A stretch of 60,146 nt of DNA, from positions 3,943-64,088 of the forward strand of contig CAYWYQ010000002.1 of assembly GCA_964462325.1 (NCBI GenBank), read 5' to 3'. The notes under the pieces are model-generated. The model was not told the DNA's origin. It saw only the letters and a list, made by a program, of their open reading frames with translations, and did not search any database. Of the stretch, positions 8,996 through 48,621 are shown piece by piece. The translations under genes and the position numbers were made by a program. This DNA is from an uncultured Gammaproteobacteria bacterium. Its GTDB lineage: Bacteria > Patescibacteriota > Patescibacteriia > UBA9934. Numbering within the stretch: position 1 is the first letter of the stretch; the number at the start of each line of letters is the position of its first letter.

Positions 8996-9994
8996 TGCGC
9001 GTTTTTGTTTTATAACCTGCTTCGTTGCTTTTATAATAGCAGGAGCTGTTAACTGAAAGTGTTCTAATAATTCATTTGGTTCACCAGATTCCCCAAATCT
9101 ATCTTGCATGCCTATGCGATGAATAGGAACAGGGTAATGTTCTGAAGTAAGTTCGCAAACAGCGGAACCCATTCCAGCTGCCACTTGAGCTTCCTCTACC
9201 GTTACGATGCATTCGCAGTCCTTCGCCGCTTGTAAAATAGTCGTTTCATCCATCGGTTTTAAAGATGCATTATTAATCACCCGCGCTTCAATGCCGAGTT
9301 TAGATAACTCTTCTGCTGCAAGAAGGCATTCATACAGGAGGGGGCCGCAGCCGATAATGGCGACATCATTTCCATTTCTGAATATCTGAGCTTTACCTAC
9401 TTCAAATGGAGTCGATTCCGTTGTAAATACGGGACTTTTTTCTCGAGCAAATCGAATATAAACAGGGCCATCAATTTTTGCAGCTTCAATTGTAGCTTTT
9501 CGTGTTTCAATAGCATCGCATGGAATAAAGACTTTCATTTCAGGGAGTACGCGCATAAGGGCAATATCTTCTAGCATCTGATGTGTTGCTCCGTCCGGAC
9601 CGACTGAAACACCGGCATGCGCACCAACAATTTTAAGATTTGTTTTTTGTAGGCATCCTGTTGTACGAATCTGTTCCCAATTTCTTCCAGGAGAGAAACA
9701 AGCATAACTTGAAATGAACACGGTTTTTCCGGCTAATGCCATTCCGGCTCCTACGGCTGCCATAGATTGTTCTGCGACGCCAAATTGTACAAATCGATTT
9801 GGAAATTGTTTTTTGAATTCGGTACTTCGTGTTGAGTCCGTTAAATCAGCGCAAATAACATAGATATTAGGATCATTTTTTCCCGCAAGAACAATGCCTT
9901 CACCGTATCCATCACGGGTGGGGATTTGCTTCAACATGTCTTTATTTCTCCAACCTTTATTTAATTTTGGATTTGGATATTTCATACTATTCAC
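8990..9994 (-). CDS. tkt: transketolase, C-terminal (pyrimidine-binding) subunit
   Basis: 334 aa with FGVAEQ, GPDGATHQ and EDIA. It overlaps the N-terminal subunit gene by 8 nt, the split-tkt arrangement. Confidence 0.9.
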   Translation of the reverse strand: MNSMKYPNPKLNKGWRNKDMLKQIPTRDGYGEGIVLAGKNDPNIYVICADLTDSTRSTEFKKQFPNRFVQFGVAEQSMAAVGAGMALAGKTVFISSYACFSPGRNWEQIRTTGCLQKTNLKIVGAHAGVSVGPDGATHQMLEDIALMRVLPEMKVFIPCDAIETRKATIEAAKIDGPVYIRFAREKSPVFTTESTPFEVGKAQIFRNGNDVAIIGCGPLLYECLLAAEELSKLGIEARVINNASLKPMDETTILQAAKDCECIVTVEEAQVAAGMGSAVCELTSEHYPVPIHRIGMQDRFGESGEPNELLEHFQLTAPAIIKATKQVIKQKRAK

Positions 9995-11161: not shown

Positions 11162-11578
11162 CTATTTAATTTGTGCCGATTTTGCGCGCAGTGTTTCTTG
11201 AATTGCTGTTTCCGCCCCCTCAAGCCCTAAAAAGGCTTGTACGCTAGGAAGGGTACTCTGGCTTTTATAGATATCGATAATACCAGGTAAAATAGCGCCT
11301 AAACTTTGTTTTGTAATTTTTAAGGCCGCTTCCTGTTTATTGTAAACATTCCATATATTCGATGGATCTTGCGCCTCAAATGCCGTTTGCTTTCCTTCTG
11401 TGGCTAATATTAGCCATTTTTCTTGTAAGGACTGTAAAATATGGTATAAATTAGCCCTTTTTATAGACGTTTCATTCAATAAATCACGTACAATAGAACG
11501 CCCTTTTCGCAATAATAACTCATATATTTCTACTTCATGGTCATTTAAACCCAACTCTTTTAGTAGTGGAAATTGCAT
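11162..11578 (-). CDS. TrmB-like winged-helix transcriptional regulator (short; N-terminal domain only)
   Basis: LGLNDHEVEIYELLLRKG..IVRDLLNETSIKRANLYHILQSLQEK is the TrmB-type HTH pattern. The 138-aa ORF is followed by about 270 nt with no ORF. Confidence 0.55.
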   Translation of the reverse strand: MQFPLLKELGLNDHEVEIYELLLRKGRSIVRDLLNETSIKRANLYHILQSLQEKWLILATEGKQTAFEAQDPSNIWNVYNKQEAALKITKQSLGAILPGIIDIYKSQSTLPSVQAFLGLEGAETAIQETLRAKSAQIK

Positions 11579-11869
11579 AATAGTGATCGATTTCTACTTA
11601 TTTTCAATTAAAAACTGACAAAATACTCATATTTATATTAGCTAATATTAGTCAAAATATGCCAGAAAACACTTGATAGAACTTGTCAATTATGTTAATG
11701 AGTAGCTATCGAGGATGAAGAACCGAAACGGAAGAAATACAAGACAGAATATTACAACAATTTGAGAGAGCTCAAGTTCCTGGGTAAAAGGAACATATAA
11801 AGTATAACACTTTATGAAAGCGCATATGCTGATCTCCCCACTAGAAATCAATATATGCGCTTTTTCTAC

Positions 11870-13115
11870 GGAAAAAGTACTACGACGTAACAGATTTACT
11901 TATATGGAATGTCCGAGACGCAAGTCTGAGAGAGATGACGTTCTATGTAGAGAAACTGTTTTCTCAAACCCTTCATTCTACTAATAATGAAGCGTTGGTC
12001 TTCAAAGGAATACATTAATCGCCTTCGGGCAAGGGAAACAACGGAATGACTCCCAATGTCTATGAGAGGCATTGTGGTAAAGAGTGCATCCTTCTTCGAC
12101 TCCCTTCTAGGTCGAGTCAAGGAGGAATCAGTCCTTACCACGGCAATCGAGGAATAGCAAAGAGGTGGTGACACCTGCTGGGCCAAGGATGAACATTCAC
12201 AATTGAATATTCATTAACGAAAGTTACCCGTTTTTGCTTTGCAAAAATGAGAGAGACTTCTAGTTTCAACCGAATATACACCCTTCATTCCGCTGCGACC
12301 ATTTGGCCGATCAGCGGGTCAATGAACGTATATTGCAGGTGTCACCGGAGGGAGGGTAACTTTCCTTGCCCATTCTGCTCACGATGCGGACAAGGTTCAA
12401 CCTTCTCCAAATTGAAGTACCGACTAAACCGCTCTGCGGTATAAGTCGGACTTCTCAAAGAATCGCAGATTTCTCGCGAGCAAAATGGGCAAATAACTTC
12501 CTATATATGGCAGTGCGTCAAGGTTAAACCTTGTATGTAATACGGAAAGGTTGAACCTTTTCCGAATCGAAGTACCGACTGAATCAGTCAAGCTGATTGA
12601 AGTCGGACTTCTCATGTCGAACTTGCTGAGAATCGCAGATAATTTTCTGCATGGATGTAAAAGGTATGTGGGTATATTTGGGAGTGAGTTTGGAACTCTC
12701 TCCCGACTCACTTCTAAATAGCAAAGCAAATCTTTTATATCCATGCGGGGAATCATCCCCTAAAAAAAGCCCTGAAAAGGGCATGGAGGTCCAATGGACC
12801 AGTTCGACACCCCTCGCGCCGAGCGCGAGGAAAGTTCCATCACCTTGCGAAAGGTGATGGAATCCGTTTTTCTCATCGTGGCGGTAATCGCCACGATGAG
12901 TTGCGGAGCCTTTATGGCATCCGCGCCGCTGTTTTTTGCAACGGAAACCAGCGTGCAGACGCTGGTGATTGCAGGCAATGTCCTGCTTGGCGCCAGCCTC
13001 GTGTTGGCTGGCGCCTGGATCGGAGGTGAACTCCTCCGAGACATGGCGACGGGAGAATTCTTCCGTCGCTGAAACGTGCAGGGCGTAGTCACACTCGACT
13101 ACGCCCTGCAAAATT
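11870..13115 (+). ncRNA. candidate large, highly structured ncRNA or palindrome array (unclassified)
   Basis: GC-rich island in an AT-rich genome with no credible ORF. Dozens of stems, a duplicated module with compensatory changes, and 11-12 bp long-range helices. UUCG/GNRA loops read on the + strand only. The ends are approximate. Confidence 0.4.
12794..13072 (+). CDS. doubtful: 92-codon hydrophobic (2-TM-like) ORF inside the hairpin array
   Basis: GGAGG at 12785-12789 with only a 4-nt spacer. The product has two hydrophobic segments, but the ORF is almost fully covered by perfect palindromes and both strands are open here. Confidence 0.25.
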   Translation: MDQFDTPRAEREESSITLRKVMESVFLIVAVIATMSCGAFMASAPLFFATETSVQTLVIAGNVLLGASLVLAGAWIGGELLRDMATGEFFRR

Positions 13116-13127
13116 TCTAACATTAAT

Positions 13128-13156
13128 ATTGACAGGAAGCAAAAATAGAATATACT
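13128..13156 (+). promoter_or_regulatory. sigma70-like promoter (TTGACA, 16-nt spacer, TATACT)
   Basis: TTGACA at 13128-13133 and TATACT at 13150-13155 in an intergenic region, with no ORF downstream before the terminator at 13249. Confidence 0.45.
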
Positions 13157-13248
13157 GAAAAATCAATGATGTCGGTCGACAATCGGAAATGAAAGTTTAT
13201 CATCTCTCTCGATGAACCGTCATGTCTTGAGTCGCCGGCCTCTAAAAT

Positions 13249-13281
13249 AAAAGAACTCCCATAAGGGAGTTCTTTTATTTT
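13249..13281. terminator. bidirectional rho-independent terminator
   Basis: AAAAGAACTCCC-ataa-GGGAGTTCTTTT: a 12-bp stem with A/T runs on both sides, downstream of the minus-strand gene that ends at 13299. Confidence 0.8.
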
Positions 13282-13298
13282 GATAATATTTCCTTGAA

Positions 13299-14117
13299 TT
13301 ACTGTACAAAGATCGCTCCTGTACTTGATGAATTTAATCCATCGAAGAATGTGTAGGTTCCTGCTTCATCAAAACTGCGAATCTTTGATGCTCCTGGTTG
13401 AATGGTTCCTGTACCCCATTTTAGATTATCTGCGGTAGCATTATGCGTTGTTGATCCGGTATTTGTGAATCGGACCCCTTGTCCAACATCGATTGTGACA
13501 TCGATTGGGCTAAATCCATTGTCCGTAATAGAAATTTCTGCTGGCGCAACGAGTCCTTTATCGTCATCGATTGAACTTGTTCCGGCTTCGACGCTTGCCA
13601 CGTCATACTGACTTCCGCTTGTGATTTCTGAACCAATTGCATAGGTATTACCGAAGAATGAATCAGGCATATCATCGATCATGGTATTCCATGCAGATCC
13701 ATAGAGTTCTACAGCAATTGCTTCTGATCCTACATGTCGAAGGACTCCACCCTCTGAAACAGCATAGGTCTTAGGGTCACTATTGATTTTGAGCATGCGT
13801 GCACCTGGCTTGTAGGAAATATTTCCACCAATCTGTACTTTTGGTAAATCTGAATCTGCAACGGTTTTCACATCATCGAAATTGTCATACCAAGTAAAGT
13901 AGGTTCCGCTGGTTGGGAATACATATCGGTATCCGTCTGCCCCTAGATAATAAACAGCAGGAAGTGTTTCTCCGCGGAAAAGGTCACCGGCGCTGAGGCT
14001 TTCAATGGTAGAAAGGGCTCGAGCTTGTGGTGCGGCTGCGGTAAAGTAGCCCGCGAATGCGATAGACGTCGCAATTGCGATAAGTGCGAAGTGCTTAAAT
14101 GATAGTGTAGTACTCAT
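13299..14117 (-). CDS. secreted protein with C-terminal cupredoxin-like domain (function unknown)
   Basis: I trimmed the start to the ATG at 14117, giving the signal peptide MSTTLSFKHFALIAIATSIAFAGYFTAAAPQARA. The C-terminus (ISITDNGFSP..VRFTNTGSTTHN..GTYTFFD) resembles plastocyanin-like folds. Confidence 0.7.
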   Translation of the reverse strand: MSTTLSFKHFALIAIATSIAFAGYFTAAAPQARALSTIESLSAGDLFRGETLPAVYYLGADGYRYVFPTSGTYFTWYDNFDDVKTVADSDLPKVQIGGNISYKPGARMLKINSDPKTYAVSEGGVLRHVGSEAIAVELYGSAWNTMIDDMPDSFFGNTYAIGSEITSGSQYDVASVEAGTSSIDDDKGLVAPAEISITDNGFSPIDVTIDVGQGVRFTNTGSTTHNATADNLKWGTGTIQPGASKIRSFDEAGTYTFFDGLNSSSTGAIFVQ

Positions 14118-15284: not shown

Positions 15285-15382
15285 ATAGGGGATTATACAA
15301 AATTCGTTAGATTATTGCGATCAAGTATGTTTTTACTTGCGTTTCGAGGGTGTTGAATATAAAGTGCTGAAAGGAGGGAAAC

Positions 15383-15874
15383 ATGAACAGTTCATTGATT
15401 GATGCACTTCGCTTGGCAGAGACAGGTGACCATATGCAACTCTTTTTTGATGGATTTGGTCGCATTGTGCGACTGAGCTCACCATGTCACCGCGGTTCAA
15501 TCTGGCCACTCGGACTATCCCTCGGTATTCCGGCACCAGAGGACCCGAATGGAACAATTATTCATACATTTCTATGGGACGAAGACTTGTATGGAAATGG
15601 CGGTCTTGCAACACTTGCAAGTATTGTTGCACGCATTAATAGAACGAAGGAGACTGTTCAGCAATACGTCCACAATTGGGAATTTAGAGTGGTGCTTCCG
15701 AAGAGCATTGATTCTCGAAGTGGTTATACGTCGTGGGGAAGAGGAGTAAGACTTTCTGAGCAACGGCATTATTTTCGTGAGGCAGAGCCTTCGCGTAGGA
15801 TACTTGTAGGTCATCTGTATTTTCATGCGATTTGCTATGTGCAAAATCTACCGAAGAGAAATTCGGTCTTTTGA
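15383..15874 (+). CDS. hypothetical protein
   Basis: Strong RBS (AAGGAGGG) about 6 nt before the ATG at 15383. 163 aa, visibly GC-richer than its neighbours. Confidence 0.6.
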   Translation: MNSSLIDALRLAETGDHMQLFFDGFGRIVRLSSPCHRGSIWPLGLSLGIPAPEDPNGTIIHTFLWDEDLYGNGGLATLASIVARINRTKETVQQYVHNWEFRVVLPKSIDSRSGYTSWGRGVRLSEQRHYFREAEPSRRILVGHLYFHAICYVQNLPKRNSVF

Positions 15875-15934
15875 TCCGACTCAAGGACGAGGCGGATTTT
15901 TTATTTATGTAGGGGGTAGGGAGTAGTCGATTAG

Positions 15935-16113
15935 CCACCTAGCAAGTTAGCTTATAGCACGCTTTCCGTCATTTCGACCGAGTAAAGGGAGTGGAGAAAT
16001 CTCCTGTAGATTTGTGCCACAAGAAGATCCTAGATCGGGGTCGGGGATGACGATTGCCATGAACGGAAGATCGGTAAACCAAATCGAGGTTGAACCTCGA
16101 GGTTCAACCTCGG
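15935..16113. repeat. mosaic REP-like intergenic repeat block upstream of ileS
   Basis: Contains ttagccacctagc, gtggagaaatctcctgtag (15991-16009), gatcggggtcggggatgacg, and a perfect 28-nt palindrome CGAGGTTGAACCTCGAGGTTCAACCTCG (16085-16112). Confidence 0.8.
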
Positions 16114-16187
16114 GCGCGGAAAATGCCGTAAATAGATTCATTGTCCCTCTTGTTTGATAGGTGGTTTATTGATAACCTTAGCGATAT

Positions 16188-19070
16188 ATGTCAGAGCAAA
16201 AAACATCAAAACACAGCATAGAAGAAGAACGGGTATTATCATTCTGGAAAGAGCACGATATTTTTAAGCGATCAATTTCAGAACGGAGCGAAGGTAACCC
16301 GTATGTTTTTTATGATGGTCCTCCATTTGCGACAGGTTTGCCGCATTATGGTCATTTAGTTGCGAGTACGATGAAAGATGTTGTTCCTCGTTATTTTACG
16401 ATGCGCGGATTCCGCGTTGAACGCACATGGGGATGGGATTGTCACGGTTTGCCTATTGAAGCAATCGTCGAAAAGAAGCATGGCCTGAAGAATCGACAGG
16501 AGATTGAAGAAATGGGCGTTGCTGCGTTTAATGAAAGTTGTGATGCGGAAATCATGACCTATGCGGAGGATTGGAAGCAGGTGATTCATCGCCTTGGCCG
16601 TTGGGTGAATATGGATGAGCCTTACATGACGAAGGATTTGCAATTCATGGAATCGGTTTGGTGGGCCTTTTCGGAACTCTATAAAAAGGGTCATATTTAC
16701 GAAGGGTATAAGGTAATGCATGTTTCGCCGGCGCTTGAAACTGTACTTTCAAATATGGAAGTCAGCGATAATTACAGTGACCTTACAGATATTTCTGCTT
16801 ATGCGAGTTTCACACTTACAAGCGGAGAGTATGAAGGAGTAAAAATGATTGCATGGACAACAACACCTTGGACGCTTCCAGGGAATGCATTGCTTGCGGT
16901 TGGAAATACGATTGAATATACTCTTGTTGTATTTGAGGATGCAAAATATATTGTTGCGAAAGAACTTCTTGAAGAAGCTTTTGAAGGGAAAGAGTATCAA
17001 GTAAAGTCAGAATTGAAGGGTTCTGATCTTGTGGGGGCGTCGTATGAGCCGCTTTTCCCGTATTTTGCAGATCATAAAAACGCTTTCCGAGTTGTACATG
17101 CAGATTTTGTGACGACGGATGACGGAACAGGGATTGTGCATATCGCCCCAGGATTTGGAGAAGATGATTTGGAGCTTGGAAAGAAAGAGGGTGTTGAGCC
17201 AATTATGCATGTGCAAATGGACGGACGCTTCATTCCGGAAGTCGAACAGTCATTGGTAGAGGAGGGGTATGATGTAAAAGATTGGCCGGTCAAGAAAAAG
17301 GATGACAATATGCATGTCGATATTGAAATCATCAAATGGCTTGCACATAAAGGAAAGCTCTTTGCGAAGAAAAAGATTAAACATAATTATCCATTATGTT
17401 GGCGTACGGATTGTGCGCTTATCAATTACGCGACGACTTCCTGGTTTGTAAAAGTAGAAGATATTCGCGACACACTTGTAAGAACAAACAAAGAAATACG
17501 CTGGGTGCCGGAACATATAAAAGAAGGAAGATTCGGGAAGGGACTGGCACAGTCTCCGGATTGGTCTATTTCTCGTTCACGGTATTGGGGAACACCTATG
17601 CCGCTTTGGCGTTCAGAAGATGGCGACATTATTGTCGTTGGTTCCGTAGATGAACTGGAAGAATTAACAGGGACACGTGTTGATAATCTGCATAAGCATA
17701 TTGTAGACGAATTAACGATTGAAAAGGACGGGAAAACCTATACAAGGATTCCAGAAGTACTGGACTGTTGGTTTGAGTCTGGCTCCATGCCATACGGACA
17801 AATGCATTATCCATTTGAGAATAAAGAAAAATTTGACCGTGGTTTCCCGGCAGAATTTATTGCCGAGGGGCAGGATCAGACACGTGCGTGGTTCCATAAA
17901 TTACATGTACTTTCAAATATTTTATTTGGAATGCCCGCCTTTAAAAATGTTATCGTAAATGGAATTGTTCTTGCGGAAGACGGAAAAAAGATGAGTAAAC
18001 GATTACAGAATTATCCAGATCCAACAGAGGTAATGAATACATATGGTGCAGATGCGGTTCGGTACTATTTGATGACGAGCTCTGTTGTTCATGCAGAAAA
18101 TTTACGATTTAAGGAATCGGATGTTGATGAAGTGGCAAAGAAGTTTATTGCCATTTTGAGAAATGTCGTAAGTTTCTATGCACTCTATAAAGAGCATGAC
18201 GATGGACGAGAAGCGAGCGGAGAACATGTACTAGATAAGTGGATTTTAGCAAGACTCAATCAGGCACTAGCAACTGAGACAGAAGCAATGGACAATTATG
18301 ATTTGCAGGCGGCATCAAGACCTCTTCAACATTTTGTTACTGATTTGTCGACATGGTATGTGCGTCGTTCGCGTGATCGTGTAAAAACAGATGGGGAAGA
18401 TCAAAAAGAGGCACTTGCAACGCTTCGGACCGTTCTTGATACCTTCAGTAAGATGATTGCGCCATTTATGCCATTCCTAGCAGAGATGGTATATCAGGAA
18501 ATAGATGGGTCATATGACAGCGAAGAGAGACCATCTGTTCATTTAGAAATGTGGCCAGAGGCACAAGAAGTGGATGAAACTATTCTTGAACAAATGGGAG
18601 AGGCTCGCGCGCTTGTGAGTCGCATTCTTGATGCGCGCGAAGAGACGGGGCTTCCTGTGAAGCAAGTTCTTGGATCTGTACAGGTCACGACACCAGCAGG
18701 ATCAGTACGACCAGAAATTCAGGAAGTCATTTTGAACGAGGTAAATATAAAAGAAATGCATGTAGAGGAGGGGGAGCTTTCTGCTAAGCCAGATTTTACT
18801 TTGACACCAGAACTCAAACGAGAAGGAATGTTGCGGGAATTATCTCGGAAGATTAATGGAATGCGCAAAGATGCAGGACTTACGATTGATGACCGCATTA
18901 CGGTAAATGTATGGTCCGAATCTACCGAGGTGAATACGATGCTTGATGAGCATGAAGGTGCATTAAAAGATGCTGTTTTGGCACATGAAATTGTACGCGC
19001 GAAGCCAGATGTGGATGGAGTGCAAGTACGAATCATGGAGCAAGAAATTGAGTTGGGTATTTGTGATTAG
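16188..19070 (+). CDS. ileS: isoleucyl-tRNA synthetase
   Basis: 960 aa with the HYGH (PHYGHLV) and KMSKR signatures, a CP1 editing-domain-like insertion and no in-frame stops. Confidence 0.95.
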   Translation: MSEQKTSKHSIEEERVLSFWKEHDIFKRSISERSEGNPYVFYDGPPFATGLPHYGHLVASTMKDVVPRYFTMRGFRVERTWGWDCHGLPIEAIVEKKHGLKNRQEIEEMGVAAFNESCDAEIMTYAEDWKQVIHRLGRWVNMDEPYMTKDLQFMESVWWAFSELYKKGHIYEGYKVMHVSPALETVLSNMEVSDNYSDLTDISAYASFTLTSGEYEGVKMIAWTTTPWTLPGNALLAVGNTIEYTLVVFEDAKYIVAKELLEEAFEGKEYQVKSELKGSDLVGASYEPLFPYFADHKNAFRVVHADFVTTDDGTGIVHIAPGFGEDDLELGKKEGVEPIMHVQMDGRFIPEVEQSLVEEGYDVKDWPVKKKDDNMHVDIEIIKWLAHKGKLFAKKKIKHNYPLCWRTDCALINYATTSWFVKVEDIRDTLVRTNKEIRWVPEHIKEGRFGKGLAQSPDWSISRSRYWGTPMPLWRSEDGDIIVVGSVDELEELTGTRVDNLHKHIVDELTIEKDGKTYTRIPEVLDCWFESGSMPYGQMHYPFENKEKFDRGFPAEFIAEGQDQTRAWFHKLHVLSNILFGMPAFKNVIVNGIVLAEDGKKMSKRLQNYPDPTEVMNTYGADAVRYYLMTSSVVHAENLRFKESDVDEVAKKFIAILRNVVSFYALYKEHDDGREASGEHVLDKWILARLNQALATETEAMDNYDLQAASRPLQHFVTDLSTWYVRRSRDRVKTDGEDQKEALATLRTVLDTFSKMIAPFMPFLAEMVYQEIDGSYDSEERPSVHLEMWPEAQEVDETILEQMGEARALVSRILDAREETGLPVKQVLGSVQVTTPAGSVRPEIQEVILNEVNIKEMHVEEGELSAKPDFTLTPELKREGMLRELSRKINGMRKDAGLTIDDRITVNVWSESTEVNTMLDEHEGALKDAVLAHEIVRAKPDVDGVQVRIMEQEIELGICD

Positions 19071-34500: not shown

Positions 34501-35130
34501 TTACTCTAATGTAATTGAATTCAAGATGAGATCCCATTCATCGTCTAAATCACTGTTACCAACACCTCTTTGGTACTCTAATTTGTAATTATTACCATCA
34601 TTATCTTGGAATGATGCCGTTGTGTGCGACCAGGGTCCACCCAATGTGTTCTCAGAGATGTTGTCGACAGATACATTGTTAACTGTTATGTCATTAATCT
34701 GCACGGAAGATTTTTCAAAATTTACGAAATCTTCAGAACTGTAATCAATGATTATTGGAGTTTTTCCATTTGCGGTGAATGTAATTGGAGTGTATAACCC
34801 GACATCTCCTGGTGCAAAGTAAACAAGCGGATCTGGAGAAAGATTGGCTGAACCAACGCCTATTTCAAAGCCTCCATTCATATGCCACCCGAGTGGATAG
34901 CTGAAATGTACATTTCCCGCATCGAATGTTCTTGTGATCACTCCCATATCGTTCTTAAACACAGGGGTGTCCCCATCATCGTTATCTGTGTCTGCGTCGA
35001 CTATTACTTCTGTTGAGTCATTGTCAACAGATGGTGCTGTAGCATCTGCAGAAAGTAATAGGACTAAATTAACAATGGACAGTATGAAGGCAGTCGTTAC
35101 AATGGTGATAAGTATTTTAAAATGATGCAT
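34501..35130 (-). CDS. secreted/TM-anchored hypothetical protein (copy 1)
   Basis: 209 aa with an N-terminal hydrophobic anchor and an acidic D-rich linker. Identical to 35225..35854. Confidence 0.75.
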   Translation of the reverse strand: MHHFKILITIVTTAFILSIVNLVLLLSADATAPSVDNDSTEVIVDADTDNDDGDTPVFKNDMGVITRTFDAGNVHFSYPLGWHMNGGFEIGVGSANLSPDPLVYFAPGDVGLYTPITFTANGKTPIIIDYSSEDFVNFEKSSVQINDITVNNVSVDNISENTLGGPWSHTTASFQDNDGNNYKLEYQRGVGNSDLDDEWDLILNSITLE

Positions 35131-35224: not shown

Positions 35225-35854
35225 TTACTCTAATGTAATTGAATTCAAGATGAGATCCCATTCATCGTCTAAATCACTGTTACCAACACCTCTTTGGTAC
35301 TCTAATTTGTAATTATTACCATCATTATCTTGGAATGATGCCGTTGTGTGCGACCAGGGTCCACCCAATGTGTTCTCAGAGATGTTGTCGACAGATACAT
35401 TGTTAACTGTTATGTCATTAATCTGCACGGAAGATTTTTCAAAATTTACGAAATCTTCAGAACTGTAATCAATGATTATTGGAGTTTTTCCATTTGCGGT
35501 GAATGTAATTGGAGTGTATAACCCGACATCTCCTGGTGCAAAGTAAACAAGCGGATCTGGAGAAAGATTGGCTGAACCAACGCCTATTTCAAAGCCTCCA
35601 TTCATATGCCACCCGAGTGGATAGCTGAAATGTACATTTCCCGCATCGAATGTTCTTGTGATCACTCCCATATCGTTCTTAAACACAGGGGTGTCCCCAT
35701 CATCGTTATCTGTGTCTGCGTCGACTATTACTTCTGTTGAGTCATTGTCAACAGATGGTGCTGTAGCATCTGCAGAAAGTAATAGGACTAAATTAACAAT
35801 GGACAGTATGAAGGCAGTCGTTACAATGGTGATAAGTATTTTAAAATGATGCAT
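35225..35854 (-). CDS. secreted/TM-anchored hypothetical protein (copy 2)
   Basis: Translation identical to 34501..35130. Confidence 0.75.
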   Translation of the reverse strand: MHHFKILITIVTTAFILSIVNLVLLLSADATAPSVDNDSTEVIVDADTDNDDGDTPVFKNDMGVITRTFDAGNVHFSYPLGWHMNGGFEIGVGSANLSPDPLVYFAPGDVGLYTPITFTANGKTPIIIDYSSEDFVNFEKSSVQINDITVNNVSVDNISENTLGGPWSHTTASFQDNDGNNYKLEYQRGVGNSDLDDEWDLILNSITLE

Positions 35855-42315: not shown

Positions 42316-43083
42316 ATGAGTCAGGATCATTTTGATGAAATCGCTTGTACGTATAGTGATATGCGTCCATCGAACCAGGAACTCTTGCGCTTGGTGTATG
42401 ACCGAGCTGAATTGAAACCCGGCATGTCGCTATGGGACATCGGTTGCGGTCCAGGGGGTGATTTGGCCTGGTTTTCTTCGAAAGGGCTGAGCATTATGGG
42501 GATTGACCGCTCTGCGAAGATGGTACAGATCGCATGTCGTAGACTTGGCGAATACAAAGTGCTTTGTGGTGACGTCACGGATCTACTCAAGCAGGAAGAT
42601 GATGTGAATATGAGAATCGCTACAGATGCTTTTCTCTTTAAATTCTCATTGCACCTCATGGATGATCCAGTGAATGTGTTGCGATTGGCGTGGAATCATG
42701 TTCCCGTTGGTGGCTGCATTGTCATTGTGTCGATGCTTTACGATCAACAAGTCAAGAGTCTGCCGACGCATGGCTACTTTCCTTCGATGGATCGTGATGT
42801 TCTGCGAAGCGTCAATGATCTTCGCGCGACGATACTCTCTGTGAGAGAGGAGTTGGATGCAGATCTTCGGATCTTCAATACCACATTGTGGGAGGAGGCA
42901 CTAGACGATAATTGGATTCAACGTGTAGAGAATCGTTATATGTCAACACTCAGGAATATACCGGAGGATGAGTGGGAGCAAGGGCTTGCAGATCTCAAAG
43001 ATAATTTGAAAGTTTGGACCAGCGTCAACGATGCTCCATTGGTGAGTGTGGAAGGGTCTATTGCAATTCTGCGAAGGAGGTGA
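42316..43083 (+). CDS. class I SAM-dependent methyltransferase (cassette copy 1)
   Basis: 255 aa with motif I LWDIGCGPGGD. RBS GGGAGATGG lies upstream. Confidence 0.8.
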   Translation: MSQDHFDEIACTYSDMRPSNQELLRLVYDRAELKPGMSLWDIGCGPGGDLAWFSSKGLSIMGIDRSAKMVQIACRRLGEYKVLCGDVTDLLKQEDDVNMRIATDAFLFKFSLHLMDDPVNVLRLAWNHVPVGGCIVIVSMLYDQQVKSLPTHGYFPSMDRDVLRSVNDLRATILSVREELDADLRIFNTTLWEEALDDNWIQRVENRYMSTLRNIPEDEWEQGLADLKDNLKVWTSVNDAPLVSVEGSIAILRRR

Positions 43084-43086
43084 AAT

Positions 43087-43824
43087 GTGAACGTCGAACT
43101 AAAGTGGCTGGCGCGTCAACAGATGTCTTCTGGTCAGTTCCCGACTACGGTTTTGTACAAACCAACAGGTCTTGTTCGGAATGTGTCTACGATTTGTCCA
43201 ACGTACTTGATCGTATTCATACTCACACTATTGCGTGAGCGGAAAGGTTCTTCGGATCCTGTGCTTGATCGCATGGTCAAACAAGGTTTGGATTTTCTCG
43301 AGGAGAGAATGTATGTCGATCCAGTGGAGGGCTTTCGTGCTTGGCACTTCAATGCCTTTTATCCGCCGGATTGGGAAGAGACATGCTGGTGTTCCTTGCT
43401 TCTTGCAAATGCGGGACGTATGGGGCGTGACGAGCTGGATCCTCTGCGGCGACTTCTCGATGAAAATACTACGGACATGGGGATTGGTGTTTGGCTGAAA
43501 GATCCGTATACGCCAAATAACGGAGCTGCAAATACTTTTGATCCCATTGTAGCAATGTCGATTCAGTATTGGCTTCGCCGACTGTACGATGATCATATCG
43601 AATCGGTTGATGACTTTGTCGCGTCGGCATTGAAAAAGAAGATGGCGTCACTGTACTATGATCGTCAATTTCAAGAGTTTTTCTACTGGATAATGGGGCT
43701 GCGATGTGATGCACCGTCTCTTGATCGAGATGATCATATCGTGTTCCATAATGCGCGTCGAAAACGCTTGAATTATGCATCAGAAGAAGTGTGGCGAGCA
43801 GCTGAACTACTCATGTCTACTTGA
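43087..43824 (+). CDS. alpha/alpha-toroid, prenyltransferase/terpene-cyclase-repeat-like protein (cassette copy 1)
   Basis: GTG start 6 nt after AGGAGG. LKWLARQQMSSGQFP (QW-like repeat) and PPDWEETCWCSLLLA (compare the D.DDTA motif) suggest a squalene-cyclase/prenyltransferase-type toroid. Assignment is tentative. Confidence 0.55.
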   Translation: MNVELKWLARQQMSSGQFPTTVLYKPTGLVRNVSTICPTYLIVFILTLLRERKGSSDPVLDRMVKQGLDFLEERMYVDPVEGFRAWHFNAFYPPDWEETCWCSLLLANAGRMGRDELDPLRRLLDENTTDMGIGVWLKDPYTPNNGAANTFDPIVAMSIQYWLRRLYDDHIESVDDFVASALKKKMASLYYDRQFQEFFYWIMGLRCDAPSLDRDDHIVFHNARRKRLNYASEEVWRAAELLMST

Positions 43825-44002: not shown

Positions 44003-44770
44003 ATGAGTCAGGATCATTTTGATGAAATCGCTTGTACGTATAGTGATATGCGTCCATCGAACCAGGAACTCTTGCGCTTGGTGTATGACCGAGCTGAATT
44101 GAAACCCGGCATGTCGCTATGGGACATCGGTTGCGGTCCAGGGGGTGATTTGGCCTGGTTTTCTTCGAAAGGGCTGAGCATTATGGGGATTGACCGCTCT
44201 GCGAAGATGGTACAGATCGCATGTCGTAGACTTGGCGAATACAAAGTGCTTTGTGGTGACGTCACGGATCTACTCAAGCAGGAAGATGATGTGAATATGA
44301 GAATCGCTACAGATGCTTTTCTCTTTAAATTCTCATTGCACCTCATGGATGATCCAGTGAATGTGTTGCGATTGGCGTGGAATCATGTTCCCGTTGGTGG
44401 CTGCATTGTCATTGTGTCGATGCTTTACGATCAACAAGTCAAGAGTCTGCCGACGCATGGCTACTTTCCTTCGATGGATCGTGATGTTCTGCGAAGCGTC
44501 AATGATCTTCGCGCGACGATACTCTCTGTGAGAGAGGAGTTGGATGCAGATCTTCGGATCTTCAATACCACATTGTGGGAGGAGGCACTAGACGATAATT
44601 GGATTCAACGTGTAGAGAATCGTTATATGTCAACACTCAGGAATATACCGGAGGATGAGTGGGAGCAAGGGCTTGCAGATCTCAAAGATAATTTGAAAGT
44701 TTGGACCAGCGTCAACGATGCTCCATTGGTGAGTGTGGAAGGGTCTATTGCAATTCTGCGAAGGAGGTGA
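44003..44770 (+). CDS. class I SAM-dependent methyltransferase (cassette copy 2)
   Basis: Translation identical to 42316..43083. Confidence 0.8.
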   Translation: MSQDHFDEIACTYSDMRPSNQELLRLVYDRAELKPGMSLWDIGCGPGGDLAWFSSKGLSIMGIDRSAKMVQIACRRLGEYKVLCGDVTDLLKQEDDVNMRIATDAFLFKFSLHLMDDPVNVLRLAWNHVPVGGCIVIVSMLYDQQVKSLPTHGYFPSMDRDVLRSVNDLRATILSVREELDADLRIFNTTLWEEALDDNWIQRVENRYMSTLRNIPEDEWEQGLADLKDNLKVWTSVNDAPLVSVEGSIAILRRR

Positions 44771-44773
44771 AAT

Positions 44774-45511
44774 GTGAACGTCGAACTAAAGTGGCTGGCG
44801 CGTCAACAGATGTCTTCTGGTCAGTTCCCGACTACGGTTTTGTACAAACCAACAGGTCTTGTTCGGAATGTGTCTACGATTTGTCCAACGTACTTGATCG
44901 TATTCATACTCACACTATTGCGTGAGCGGAAAGGTTCTTCGGATCCTGTGCTTGATCGCATGGTCAAACAAGGTTTGGATTTTCTCGAGGAGAGAATGTA
45001 TGTCGATCCAGTGGAGGGCTTTCGTGCTTGGCACTTCAATGCCTTTTATCCGCCGGATTGGGAAGAGACATGCTGGTGTTCCTTGCTTCTTGCAAATGCG
45101 GGACGTATGGGGCGTGACGAGCTGGATCCTCTGCGGCGACTTCTCGATGAAAATACTACGGACATGGGGATTGGTGTTTGGCTGAAAGATCCGTATACGC
45201 CAAATAACGGAGCTGCAAATACTTTTGATCCCATTGTAGCAATGTCGATTCAGTATTGGCTTCGCCGACTGTACGATGATCATATCGAATCGGTTGATGA
45301 CTTTGTCGCGTCGGCATTGAAAAAGAAGATGGCGTCACTGTACTATGATCGTCAATTTCAAGAGTTTTTCTACTGGATAATGGGGCTGCGATGTGATGCA
45401 CCGTCTCTTGATCGAGATGATCATATCGTGTTCCATAATGCGCGTCGAAAACGCTTGAATTATGCATCAGAAGAAGTGTGGCGAGCAGCTGAACTACTCA
45501 TGTCTACTTGA
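44774..45511 (+). CDS. alpha/alpha-toroid, prenyltransferase/terpene-cyclase-repeat-like protein (cassette copy 2)
   Basis: Translation identical to 43087..43824. Confidence 0.55.
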   Translation: MNVELKWLARQQMSSGQFPTTVLYKPTGLVRNVSTICPTYLIVFILTLLRERKGSSDPVLDRMVKQGLDFLEERMYVDPVEGFRAWHFNAFYPPDWEETCWCSLLLANAGRMGRDELDPLRRLLDENTTDMGIGVWLKDPYTPNNGAANTFDPIVAMSIQYWLRRLYDDHIESVDDFVASALKKKMASLYYDRQFQEFFYWIMGLRCDAPSLDRDDHIVFHNARRKRLNYASEEVWRAAELLMST

Positions 45512-48416: not shown

Positions 48417-48545
48417 AGGCGCAGTCTGCCATAAAAACGTGGTTTTTGAAAGCTAAATATCTAATATTATGATGGTAATAATTGATTTTTGTTCTATATT
48501 TGTGTAATATATGCTCACCGCGAATGGTTATTATTCGTGAATAAG

Positions 48546-48621
48546 GGCCCGTAGCTCAGCTGGTTAGAGCGCAGAGCTTATACCTCTGTGGTCGATGGTT
48601 CGAGTCCATCCGGGCCCACCA
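48546..48621 (+). tRNA. tRNA-Ile, anticodon UAU, CCA encoded
   Basis: The cloverleaf folds by hand: acceptor GGGCCCG/CGGGCCC, D arm GCTC..GAGC, anticodon stem CAGAG/CTCTG with loop CTTATAC, T arm GATGG-TTCGAGT-CCATC. The body closely resembles a bacterial tRNA-Ile. Confidence 0.9.

What the first reader, a model, noticed from the sequence alone, without database searches (positions are those of the whole stretch)
12812..13110. Ten back-to-back near-perfect hairpins overlapping a 92-codon hydrophobic ORF
These stems follow one another almost without spacers: 12812-12830 (8 bp), 12837-12860 (10 bp, GCGA loop), 12872-12900 (12 bp, GTAAT loop), 12903-12924 (8 bp with a bulge), 12947-12966 (8 bp, GCAG loop), 12971-12986 (5 bp), 12989-13015 (10 bp), 13020-13039 (7 bp), 13046-13069 (7 bp) and 13077-13110 (14 bp). 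Nearly all pairs are Watson-Crick, so the structure would exist on either RNA strand or in DNA. The same 300 nt carry ORF 12794..13072, whose product has two hydrophobic TM-like segments (VFLIVAVIATMSCGAFMASAPLFF and LVIAGNVLLGASLVLAGAWIGG). An internal in-frame ATG (12857-12859) lies inside the 3' arm of the 10-bp GCGA hairpin. This leaves three readings. It may be the 3' domain of the large ncRNA, with the ORF an artefact of GC-rich palindromes. It may be a small membrane toxin-like gene with a heavily structured, translation-occluding mRNA, in type I toxin-antitoxin style. Or it may be a new kind of palindrome array. A weak minus-strand terminator-like element (GCCC-TTTTCA-GGGC plus T7, 12761-12782) leaves the transcribed strand ambiguous.
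Basis: partly seen in the sequence, partly recalled or inferred. Interest (0 to 1): 0.7.

Follow-up and report, generated by a model that had tools for sequence, protein, structure and literature searches.

The report
Hairpin-packed orphan small gene in CPR bacterium
A 300-base stretch in an uncultured marine Magasanikbacteria genome folds into eleven back-to-back, almost perfect hairpins and also carries the statistical fingerprint of a gene for a small two-helix membrane protein; the combination has no known relative, occurs in only this lineage, and its function is inferred, not shown.

Summary
Window 12812-13110 holds 10-11 adjacent hairpins. There are 7 perfect stems of at least 7 bp against 0.13 expected. 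The fold energy is -196 kcal/mol (z = -14), and mean pair probability is 0.98.

The ORF is probably not a palindrome artefact:
- The stretch has codon-type 3-periodicity as strong as real genes (chi2 28.7; null mean 5.9; P about 1e-4). The signal holds separately in loops and in stems.
- GGAGG lies 4 nt before the ATG.
- The stop codon lies just before the last and largest hairpin.

ORF92 has no homologue among 1.84 billion representative proteins. Its codon usage is unlike the host's, and the host's own genes lack Shine-Dalgarno sites.

Stems are 70% GC and unpaired bases 33%, in a 40% GC genome. This suggests the stems themselves are selected.

The array belongs to a 2.4-kb lineage-specific insert (trmB, a conserved structured RNA, then the array) between the cupredoxin and transketolase genes. 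Relatives carrying the homologous RNA have other SD-led, GC-rich ORFs in its place.

No antitoxin, repeat family, TIGR/Tas, integron or Rfam match was found.

Best reading (0.4): an orphan small membrane-protein gene whose mRNA is folded into independent hairpins that stabilise the RNA and throttle translation. Function is untested.

The parts
12785..12789 (+). GGAGG, Shine-Dalgarno-like, 4 nt before the ATG of ORF92
   Evidence: Read directly from the sequence. None of 26 host genes has such a motif upstream. The SD-led genes of the L005 GC-rich island do.
12794..13072 (+). ORF92: 92 codons, two predicted membrane-type helices, orphan
   Evidence: 3-periodicity chi2 is 28.7 against a null mean of 5.9, P about 1e-4. 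It holds in both unpaired and stem positions. T at codon position 2 is 38%, G at position 1 is 40%, and GC3-GC2 is 0.23. No homologue was found. Codon usage is unlike the host's.
12812..12830 (+). Hairpin 1: 8 bp, CGA loop
12834..12863 (+). Hairpin 2: 12 WC pairs plus a closing G.U, GCGA (GNRA-type) loop. It is followed by CCGTTTTTCT and contains the in-frame ATG at 12857.
   Evidence: Flagged as terminator-like on the + strand.
12872..12900 (+). Hairpin 3: 12 bp, GTAAT loop. Encodes LIVAVIATM.
12902..12925 (+). Hairpin 4: 9 pairs with a one-base bulge
12926..12944 (+).
12947..12966 (+). Hairpin 5: 8 bp, GCAG loop
12971..12986 (+). Hairpin 6: 5 bp
12989..13015 (+). Hairpin 7: 10 bp. Built of GNC-type self-complementary codons (GGC GCC AGC ... 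GCT GGC GCC).
13016..13043 (+). Hairpin 8: 7 bp core (13020-13039) plus 2 outer pairs
13045..13070 (+). Hairpin 9: 11 pairs on the + strand, including two G.U, and fewer on the - strand. It ends at the stop codon.
13077..13110 (+). Hairpin 10: 14 bp, the strongest. It starts 5 nt after the stop codon and has no U-tract. It is the likely 3' end or protective cap of the transcript.
   Evidence: Its role is inferred.
11700..12760 (+). Upstream structured RNA (leader or ncRNA). It is homologous in part to L005 9286-9860 and L006 16790-17214, and includes a tandem duplicated domain (about 12385-12480 and 12545-12650).
   Evidence: L005 against L006 is 98.4% identical here, against 87.5% in trmB and 84% in other coding DNA. 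There are 3 compensatory pairs between the window and L005/L006. Rfam gives no match.
11162..11578 (-). trmB-family regulator gene, divergent from the structured RNA
   Evidence: Pfam TrmB, 1.2e-11. The same divergent pairing is seen in L005/L006.
12761..12782 (-). Weak minus-strand terminator-like element (4-bp stem plus T7) just upstream of ORF92
   Evidence: No minus-strand promoter was found downstream of the array.
13129..13282 (+). Near-consensus promoter (TTGACA-16-TATACT, 13129-13156) and bidirectional terminator (13243-13282). Together they bracket a possible sRNA of about 120 nt.
   Evidence: Its complementarity to the ORF92 mRNA is not above chance.

Best explanation
The stretch is a lineage-specific, Shine-Dalgarno-led small gene (ORF92, a two-helix hydrophobic protein). 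It lies at the 3' end of a + strand transcript of about 1.4 kb. That transcript starts at the promoter divergent from trmB and runs through a conserved structured RNA.

The coding sequence has been shaped into 10-11 independent, GC-clamped hairpins, separated by short AU-rich linkers. This is workable because much of it uses self-complementary GNC/RNY-type codons and a simple hydrophobic sequence.

The hairpins act at the RNA level in three ways:
- They make the 3' part of the RNA a compact, nuclease- and Rho-resistant 'beads on a string'.
- They force ribosomes to melt one strong helix after another, so the membrane-active peptide is made slowly or only rarely.
- The 14-bp hairpin after the stop codon caps the 3' end.

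Shown: the hairpins and their significance; coding periodicity; SD-ATG; orphan status; GC confined to stems; the lineage-specific insertion; the conserved upstream RNA.

Inferred: + strand transcription, translation, and the stabilising and throttling role.
For: Hairpins:
- 7 perfect stems against 0.13 expected; pair probability 0.98.
- z = -14.
- G+C is 70% in stems and 33% in unpaired bases. GC3 is 0.83 in stems and 0.41 outside, with a host GC3 of 0.32. So stem stability, not a foreign base composition, explains the GC richness.

Coding:
- Nucleotide-by-codon-position chi2 is 28.7. Real genes give 7-41, windows of the upstream RNA give 2-10, and the architecture-preserving null has a mean of 5.9, P about 1e-4.
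- The signal is significant in unpaired positions alone (P = 0.02) and in stem positions alone (P = 9e-4).
- T2, G1 and GC3-GC2 each exceed a null conditioned on an open frame.
- GGAGG lies 4 nt before the ATG, and the stop is 5 nt before the largest hairpin.
- The model has two long helices.

Strand:
- The + fold is about 11 kcal/mol better, through G.U closing pairs, and it has a GNRA loop.
- The upstream RNA has many G.U pairs on +.
- No minus-strand promoter was found.

Context:
- In L005 the homologous RNA is also followed by SD-led, GC-rich ORFs with clear coding periodicity.
- The local fold leaves the SD and AUG unpaired, so initiation is possible.
Against: - There is no homologue in 5.8 billion clustered proteins or 1.84 billion representatives, and none in Pfam, PHROGs or PADLOC.
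- All copies found are identical, so selection cannot be measured.
- Codon usage scores -0.25, against +0.06 to +0.32 for host genes.
- None of 26 host genes uses an SD; many look leaderless. It is therefore unknown whether host ribosomes would use this GGAGG.
- Three of the six frames are open. The in-phase antisense frame shares the periodicity.
- 71% of the ORF's bases are locked in stems.
- Internal G.U pairs are almost absent. RNA-only selection in an AT-biased genome does not predict this.
- Periodicity could be the fossil of a former gene.
Confidence: 0.4

Rival explanations
1. It is a non-coding RNA hairpin array. The hairpins form a lineage-specific 3' extension of the trmB-linked structured RNA. 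They act as a protective or scaffolding tail that blocks exonucleases, blocks Rho loading, or provides a dsRNA-binding platform. ORF92 is either chance or the fossil of a gene that was once there.
For: - It is directly contiguous with a real conserved RNA on the same strand.
- An open frame of at least 92 codons arises by chance in 29% of architecture-preserving randomisations.
- Three frames are open.
- The ORF is an orphan.
- The host does not use SD sites.
- The hairpins continue beyond the stop codon (hairpin 10).
- GC is confined to stems.
Against: - Codon-type periodicity is as strong as in real genes and is present even in loops and linkers.
- GGAGG lies at -4.
- The array is absent from the homologous RNA of L005/L006.
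- The loops share no motif that would suggest a protein-binding sponge (read from the sequence).
Confidence: 0.28
2. It is a both-strand or DNA-level element. In one version the palindromes must be Watson-Crick on both strands because a sense RNA and a cis-antisense RNA both fold and meet by loop-loop kissing. The antisense RNA would end at the 12782-12761 terminator. In another version the DNA hairpins or cruciforms are themselves the functional or self-perpetuating unit, with the arms kept identical by intrastrand template switching (quasi-palindrome correction).
For: - There are only 6 G.U among 111 pairs, all at helix ends, and no internal mismatch apart from one bulge. The unpaired bases have drifted to 33% GC.
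- The minus strand folds almost as well (z = -15).
- A minus-strand terminator-like site lies exactly at the upstream edge.
Against: - No minus-strand promoter was found between the array and the strong cupredoxin terminator.
- The minus-strand terminator has only a 4-bp stem.
- Ten different palindromes would need ten different DNA-binding specificities.
- Stems of 5-14 bp are short for cruciform extrusion (established knowledge).
- No transposase, integrase or HUH enzyme is nearby.
- This reading does not explain the coding periodicity.
Confidence: 0.15
3. It is a decaying remnant of foreign DNA. A fragment of an SD-led, GC-rich mobile island, like the one after the same RNA in L005, is left without present function.
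For: - In L005 the homologous RNA is followed by an island of 60-73% GC. Its genes are SD-led and coding, while the host genes are leaderless.
- ORF92 shares the SD-led, GC-rich style. It lies in a 2.4-kb insert that is absent from the closest relatives.
Against: - GC richness is confined to stems, and unpaired bases are host-like.
- There is no similarity to the L005 island at the DNA or protein level.
- A decaying fragment would not keep 111 near-perfect pairs.
Confidence: 0.1
4. It is a TIGR-like stem-loop guide-RNA array, or another RNA-guide array of the kind found in CPR bacteria.
For: TIGR-Tas systems occur in CPR bacteria. One variant has tandem stem-loops with variable palindromic stems (PMC12045711, section 9).
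Against: - The loops here are 3-7 nt. They cannot hold two 8-12-nt spacers plus box C/D motifs.
- There are no recurring RUGAUGA/CUGA motifs (read from the sequence).
- None of the roughly 35 proteins scanned has a Nop/Tas domain. These include nearly all called genes within about 20 kb of the array; three small upstream ORFs were not scanned.
Confidence: 0.02

Closest known systems
Dual-function structured RNAs that also encode a small membrane-active peptide (e.g. Staphylococcus aureus RNAIII with hld; from established knowledge, not tested here)
   Same: A long, multi-hairpin RNA has a short ORF for a hydrophobic peptide embedded in its helices. It is transcribed next to a dedicated regulator.
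   Different: - Here the hairpins are nearly perfect and purely local, and they cover almost the whole ORF.
- The ORF is 92 codons.
- There is no sequence or Rfam relationship.
- The peptide and any regulatory role are unproven.
Type I toxin-antitoxin toxin mRNAs (hok/sok, tisB/istR, aapA1/IsoA1, bsrG/SR4; from established knowledge)
   Same: A small hydrophobic ORF sits on a very stable, heavily folded mRNA. The expected role of the folding is to limit translation.
   Different: - No antitoxin RNA was found.
- The SD and AUG are not sequestered locally.
- The ORF has two helices and 92 aa, against the usual single helix of under 60 aa.
- There is no match to toxin families or Rfam antitoxins above chance.
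TIGR stem-loop arrays (Faure et al. 2025, PMC12045711)
   Same: Tandem hairpins have stems that differ from unit to unit. The family is reported in CPR bacteria and their phages.
   Different: TIGR units carry two spacers and box C/D motifs inside large loops, and they lie next to a Nop-domain Tas gene. Here the loops are 3-7 nt, there are no box motifs, and no Tas gene is present.
Clustered extragenic or intragenic palindromic repeats (REP/BIME; Rickettsia palindromic elements inside ORFs; from established knowledge)
   Same: Palindromes lie in close succession. In Rickettsia, palindromic DNA is read through as part of proteins.
   Different: Those are multi-copy families with a shared consensus. 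Here every stem is different. No other copy exists in the 60-kb window or in the roughly 1.5 Mb of related-genome loci fetched here (1.66 Mb of loci in all).

Membership tests
Type I toxin-antitoxin | Small hydrophobic membrane peptide ORF | tested here: met
   The ORF has 92 aa and two hydrophobic helices. That is longer than typical members, and translation is not shown.
Type I toxin-antitoxin | Antisense or partly complementary sRNA antitoxin encoded at the locus | tested here: not met
   No minus-strand promoter was found. The duplex between the neighbouring + strand sRNA-like unit and the ORF92 mRNA is not above shuffles (10 of 60 do as well). Only a weak minus-strand terminator is present.
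Type I toxin-antitoxin | Translation start sequestered in the stable mRNA fold | tested here: inconclusive
   The local fold leaves 12785-12811 largely unpaired. The 1.1-kb fold pairs it with about 11994-12005, but that helix has no comparative support.
Type I toxin-antitoxin | Homology to a described toxin or antitoxin family | tested here: not met
   Pfam, PHROGs and PADLOC give no match. The Rfam OrzO-P hits, at E = 3-6, lie on the terminator only.
TIGR-Tas stem-loop array | [quoted passage not shown] | tested here: not met
   Loops are 3-7 nt. No recurring box C/D motif is present (sequence read). The criteria are from PMC12045711.
TIGR-Tas stem-loop array | Adjacent Nop-domain Tas protein gene | tested here: not met
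   No Nop domain is found in nearly all called genes within about 20 kb (three small upstream ORFs were not scanned). Those scanned are sugar-metabolism, tRNA-synthetase and cell-envelope genes or unknowns.
REP/BIME/MITE-type palindromic repeats | Many dispersed copies sharing a consensus | tested here: not met
   No second copy of any arm exists in the window beyond chance 14-mers. Relatives have no comparable array. The whole genome is not available.
Integron attC sites | Conserved R/L boxes with extrahelical bases, cassette ORFs between the sites, and intI nearby | tested here: not met
   The stems are perfect with no shared boxes (sequence read). Spacers are 0-9 nt. No integrase is present.
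3' domain of the trmB-linked structured RNA | Conserved together with that RNA in other lineages | tested here: not met
   L005/L006 carry the homologous RNA but no array. L005 has only 4 perfect hairpins in the 3.8 kb from the trmB start codon to the contig end.
Any Rfam family | Covariance-model score at or above the gathering threshold | tested here: not met
   There is no hit at 11400-13400. Hits with E up to 10 are generic hairpins.
Ordinary host protein-coding gene | Host-like codon usage and initiation signals, and homologues in relatives | tested here: not met
   The codon score is -0.25 against +0.06 to +0.32. GC3 is 0.69 against 0.32. The ORF is SD-led while 0 of 26 host genes are. 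No homologues exist.

The most novel reading that the evidence does not exclude
The same 300 nt are selected at once as a protein-coding sequence and as a chain of perfect, mutually orthogonal hairpins, built largely from self-complementary (GNC/RNY) codons. This would be a 'hairpin-coded' small membrane protein gene. It might have been born de novo from, or been converted into, a palindrome array at the variable 3' side of a conserved CPR regulatory RNA. It would be a previously undescribed way of coupling RNA stability or strand-symmetric folding to the production of a membrane peptide.
Probability: 0.2. Interest if true: 0.75.

Novelty: new variant of a known kind. Interest (0 to 1): 0.55.

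Why it matters
If the peptide is made, this would be an extreme natural case of one sequence meeting two dense codes at once: 71% of its bases lie in near-perfect helices while it keeps gene-like codon periodicity. That bears on three questions:
- How far mRNA structure can be pushed before translation fails.
- How small membrane proteins or toxins are kept silent in tiny-genome CPR bacteria, which otherwise use leaderless, SD-less genes.
- Whether genes can arise de novo from palindromic DNA.

It also points to a conserved, unclassified trmB-linked structured RNA. Its downstream side carries different SD-led, GC-rich cargo in different Magasanikbacteria. That RNA may be the more general discovery.

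If the array is non-coding, it is still an unusually clean natural 'beads-on-a-string' RNA. It would be useful as a model for exonuclease or Rho shielding.

Tried and rejected
- **Rfam**, at gathering and E-value thresholds: nothing at the locus.
- **ORF92 protein homology**: only itself was found. Pfam, PHROGs and PADLOC gave no match.
- **Variants of the locus**: four contigs are all 100% identical, so no covariation or dN/dS test was possible.
- **Homologous arrays in relatives**:
  - 80 Magasanikbacteria/Patescibacteria ileS loci.
  - 11 loci around cupredoxin homologues at 64-76% identity.
  - No array and no sequence match in any of them.
- **Metagenome scan with a TrmB profile**: it gave only one short, irrelevant contig. 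A TrmB protein search at E <= 1e-10 gave only a 99% variant on a 648-nt contig. That threshold was probably too strict.
- **Viral-contig scans**: the 14-bp hairpin, the conserved ncRNA loop motif, TrmB and the L005 island protein gave nothing or chance hits. Phage-genome BLAST of the array gave no match.
- **Replication origin**: rejected, as there is no DnaA-box cluster.
- **Antitoxin role for the downstream sRNA-like unit**: its complementarity is not above chance.
- **Conserved SD-ATG junction between the window and L005**: the local alignment is not significant (P = 0.31), so it was dropped as evidence.
- **Target-site duplications around the 2.4-kb insert**: none found.
- **TIGR-like array**: rejected on loop size, motifs and the absence of Tas.
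- **CsrB-like sponge**: rejected, as the loops share no motif (sequence read).
- **MDA or assembly chimera**: rejected, as independent assemblies are identical.
Full report
**1. The observation**

Three small corrections apply:
- The GCGA hairpin is longer than stated, 12834-12863.
- The 13045-13070 hairpin reaches 11 pairs on the + strand through two G.U pairs.
- An extra weak hairpin lies at 12926-12944.

In 12794-13125 there are 7 perfect stems of at least 7 bp with 3-8-nt loops. 3000 dinucleotide-preserving shuffles give a mean of 0.13 and never more than 3. The rest of the 60-kb window has about one such hairpin per kb and no other cluster.

The 336-nt stretch folds at -196.3 kcal/mol on + (z = -14.2) and at -188.0 on - (z = -15.1). 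It has 111 pairs covering 71% of the bases. Mean pair probability is 0.98, and ensemble diversity is 16, against 90 for shuffles. The fold is therefore one sharply defined chain of local helices.

Four contigs from ENA and JGI samples are 100% identical across 11400-13400, so this is not an assembly artefact.

**2. Organism and context**

The IleRS gene places the window in Candidatus Magasanikbacteria (Patescibacteria/CPR). The nearest species representatives share 66% IleRS identity. The neighbouring genes are core sugar-metabolism genes: transketolase, Rpe, RpiB, FBP aldolase and PfkB kinases.

In the two nearest species representatives (L005, L006), the cupredoxin gene is followed directly by the transketolase N-terminal subunit gene (tktN). 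The same is true in most loci around closer cupredoxin homologues. These include a 768-kb contig at 76% identity (L099), plus L100, L105 and L107-L109. A few lineages instead have some other small ORF at that junction, often a membrane-protein ORF (L101, L102, L103/L106).

The window has a 2.4-kb insert at this junction. It contains a trmB-family regulator gene (11162-11578, minus strand) and 1.7 kb with no credible host-type gene. The hairpin array is the last 300 nt of that stretch.

**3. The upstream RNA is real, but the array is not one of its conserved parts**

In L005 and L006 the trmB homologue lies elsewhere in the genome. There too it is divergently paired with a non-coding stretch that shares sequence patches with window 12180-12400.

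Between L005 and L006 that stretch is 98.4% identical. trmB is 87.5% identical, and other coding DNA is 84%.

Between the window and L005/L006, one stem around the conserved loop CGACCnnTTGGCCGA keeps pairing through three double substitutions.

It has no Rfam match.

L005 shows no hairpin array after this RNA. It has only four perfect hairpins in the 3.8 kb from the trmB start codon to the contig end. L006's contig ends within the RNA. In L005 a 60-73% GC island follows, carrying ORFs with clear coding periodicity.

The array is also built differently from the upstream RNA. It gives -0.63 against -0.36 kcal/mol per nt, and 66% against 42% G-C pairs.

No comparable array exists in the roughly 1.5 Mb of related-genome loci examined (1.66 Mb of loci fetched in all). 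No arm of the array recurs in the window.

**4. Is ORF92 an artefact?**

Some tests say nothing or argue against coding:
- Length alone says nothing. 29% of randomisations that keep the hairpin architecture have a frame open for at least 92 codons. Three of the six frames are open.
- Codon usage is unlike the host's. The per-codon score is -0.25, against +0.06 to +0.32. GC3 is 0.69, against 0.32.
- No homologue exists in 5.8 billion clustered proteins or in 1.84 billion representatives read by HMMER. Pfam, PHROGs and PADLOC give nothing.

Other tests argue for coding:
- The stretch has strong 3-periodicity. The nucleotide-by-codon-position chi2 is 28.7. That is the same range as 276-nt pieces of real genes (7-41). 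Windows of the upstream RNA give 2-10. The architecture-preserving null has a mean of 5.9 and a 99.9th percentile of 21.7, so P is about 1e-4.
- The signal is of the usual coding type. G and purines are enriched at position 1. T is 38% at position 2. G/C is 70% at position 3. Each of these exceeds a null conditioned on having an open frame.
- The signal holds separately in the unpaired positions (permutation P = 0.02) and in the stem positions (P = 9e-4).
- GGAGG lies 4 nt before the ATG, and the stop codon lies 5 nt before the strongest hairpin.
- A single-sequence AlphaFold model gives two long helices with pLDDT 75. This is consistent but weak evidence.

My reading is that the stretch is, or recently was, a coding sequence in frame +0. 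The in-phase antisense frame shares the periodicity. But it has no start signal, and it runs on through a terminator-like site into the upstream RNA.

**5. Are the hairpins themselves selected?**

G+C is 70% in paired bases and 33% in unpaired bases. Third codon positions are 83% GC in stems and 41% outside. The genome is about 40% GC, with GC3 of 0.32.

The GC richness is therefore a property of the stems. It is not a foreign base composition. This is what selection for helix stability in an AT-biased genome would give.

Several stems use GNC-type codons whose reverse complements are again GNC codons, for example GGC GCC AGC ... GCT GGC GCC. This is how one sequence can be both palindromic and coding for a simple Gly/Ala/Leu/Val-rich helix.

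Only 6 of the 111 pairs are G.U, and all 6 lie at helix ends. RNA-only selection would tolerate G.U pairs. The near-exclusive Watson-Crick pairing therefore remains unexplained. There are three candidates:
- a recent origin;
- a need to fold on both strands;
- arm-to-arm correction by template switching, a known mutational bias at quasi-palindromes (established knowledge).

**6. Strand and signals**

Several features favour the + strand:
- Its fold is 8-11 kcal/mol better, owing to G.U closing pairs.
- The GCGA loop is GNRA-type only on +.
- The upstream RNA is rich in G.U on +.
- No minus-strand promoter was found by scan or by eye.

A weak minus-strand terminator-like site at 12782-12761 keeps an antisense transcript possible.

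Hairpin 2 followed by CCGTTTTTCT is terminator-like on +. Some transcripts may therefore end 70 nt into the ORF.

An unexpected point is that none of 26 host genes has an SD motif. At least four have a perfect TATAAT box ending 7-10 nt before the ATG, and others have −10-like boxes there, which suggests leaderless mRNAs. The same holds for L005 host genes. The L005 island genes, by contrast, are SD-led. ORF92 therefore resembles the 'cargo' that follows this RNA in another lineage, not the host genes. Whether the host ribosome uses the GGAGG is unknown.

**7. What it is not**

- It is not a type I toxin-antitoxin system by the tests available. There is no antitoxin candidate, no local occlusion of the start, and no family match.
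- It is not a TIGR stem-loop array. That family is the closest published 'variable tandem hairpins in CPR'. It requires large loops holding two spacers and box C/D motifs, plus a Nop-domain Tas gene (PMC12045711). Loops here are 3-7 nt, and no such gene lies within 20 kb.
- It is not a REP/MITE family, an integron, an origin of replication, or phage-derived DNA detectable by BLAST.

**8. Verdict**

The best-supported reading has confidence 0.4. The stretch is an orphan, SD-led small membrane-protein gene at the 3' end of a trmB-linked structured transcript. Its mRNA has been moulded into a chain of GC-clamped hairpins that stabilise the RNA and throttle translation.

The main rival has confidence 0.28. 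The array is a purely non-coding 3' hairpin tail, and the coding signal is a fossil.

A both-strand or DNA-level constraint (0.15) is kept alive by the strict Watson-Crick pairing.

The object is real, highly non-random and without a known family. It is seen in one lineage only, with no sequence variation, so its function is inferred.

Noticed in passing
window 11700-12760 (+); L005 9286-9860; L006 16790-17214: A conserved, unclassified structured RNA lies divergent from a trmB-family gene. L005 and L006 are 98.4% identical here, against 84-87% in the flanking genes. A stem shows three compensatory pairs between the window and L005/L006. There is no Rfam match. Its self-complementary GGCC loop (CGACCnnTTGGCCGA) could mediate kissing dimers.
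   Followed up: partly
window 12385-12480 and 12545-12650; L100 2236-2279: A tandem duplicated domain of about 100-110 nt lies inside that RNA. Both copies have the stem GAAGTACCGACT/AGTCGGACTTC, closed by different terminal hairpins. The 11-mer AAGTCGGACTT otherwise occurs only in L100. There it forms a 15-bp perfect palindrome pair exactly at the cupredoxin-tktN junction, where the window has its insert.
   Followed up: partly
window 11402-11415 and 11640-11653; L005 about 9214-9229; L006 about 16717-16732: The palindrome GGCTAATATTAGCC (AGCTAATATTAGTC in the intergenic copy) is conserved between trmB and the RNA promoter in all three lineages. It is a candidate TrmB operator. The window has a second copy inside trmB.
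   Followed up: no
whole window, e.g. upstream of 3713, 6398, 10892, 15284; L005 host genes: Host genes lack Shine-Dalgarno motifs (0 of 26). Several have a TATAAT box ending 7-10 nt before the start codon, which suggests widespread leaderless mRNAs.
   Followed up: partly
window 13129-13282 (+): A near-consensus promoter (TTGACA-16-TATACT) is followed about 90 nt later by a 17-bp bidirectional terminator shared with the cupredoxin gene. Together they bracket a possible sRNA of about 120 nt with unknown function.
   Followed up: partly
L005 9600-12846: A 60-73% GC island follows the conserved RNA in a host of about 50% GC. It carries SD-led ORFs of no known family. One (301 aa) is weakly similar to an ORF of a 485-kb uncultured phage. 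The last is a 92-aa two-helix protein with a Lys-rich tail, which is holin-like.
   Followed up: partly
cupredoxin-tktN junction: L101 7882-8400, L102 7942-8520, L103 7873-8247, L106 5873-6247: This junction is a hotspot. Different lineages carry different small ORFs here, mostly membrane-protein ORFs, while most relatives have none.
   Followed up: partly
window 15285-16187: A second stretch is absent from L005/L006, lying between rpiB and ileS. It holds orphan ORFs of 163 aa (+) and 64 aa (-). An ORF of similar size (160 aa) lies at the same place in the closer relative L099; its similarity to the 163-aa ORF was not tested.
   Followed up: no
window 48545-48621: A tRNA-Ile with a UAU anticodon, which is uncommon in bacteria.
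   Followed up: no
window 34501-35130 / 35225-35854 and 42316-43824 / 44003-45511: These look like tandem gene duplications. One is two 209-aa ORFs with the same internal hairpins 724 nt apart. The other is a repeated pair of 255-aa and 245-aa ORFs.
   Followed up: no
L101 12833-13831: A reverse-transcriptase (RVT_1) gene lies next to the FBP aldolase gene in a related Magasanikbacteria contig.
   Followed up: no
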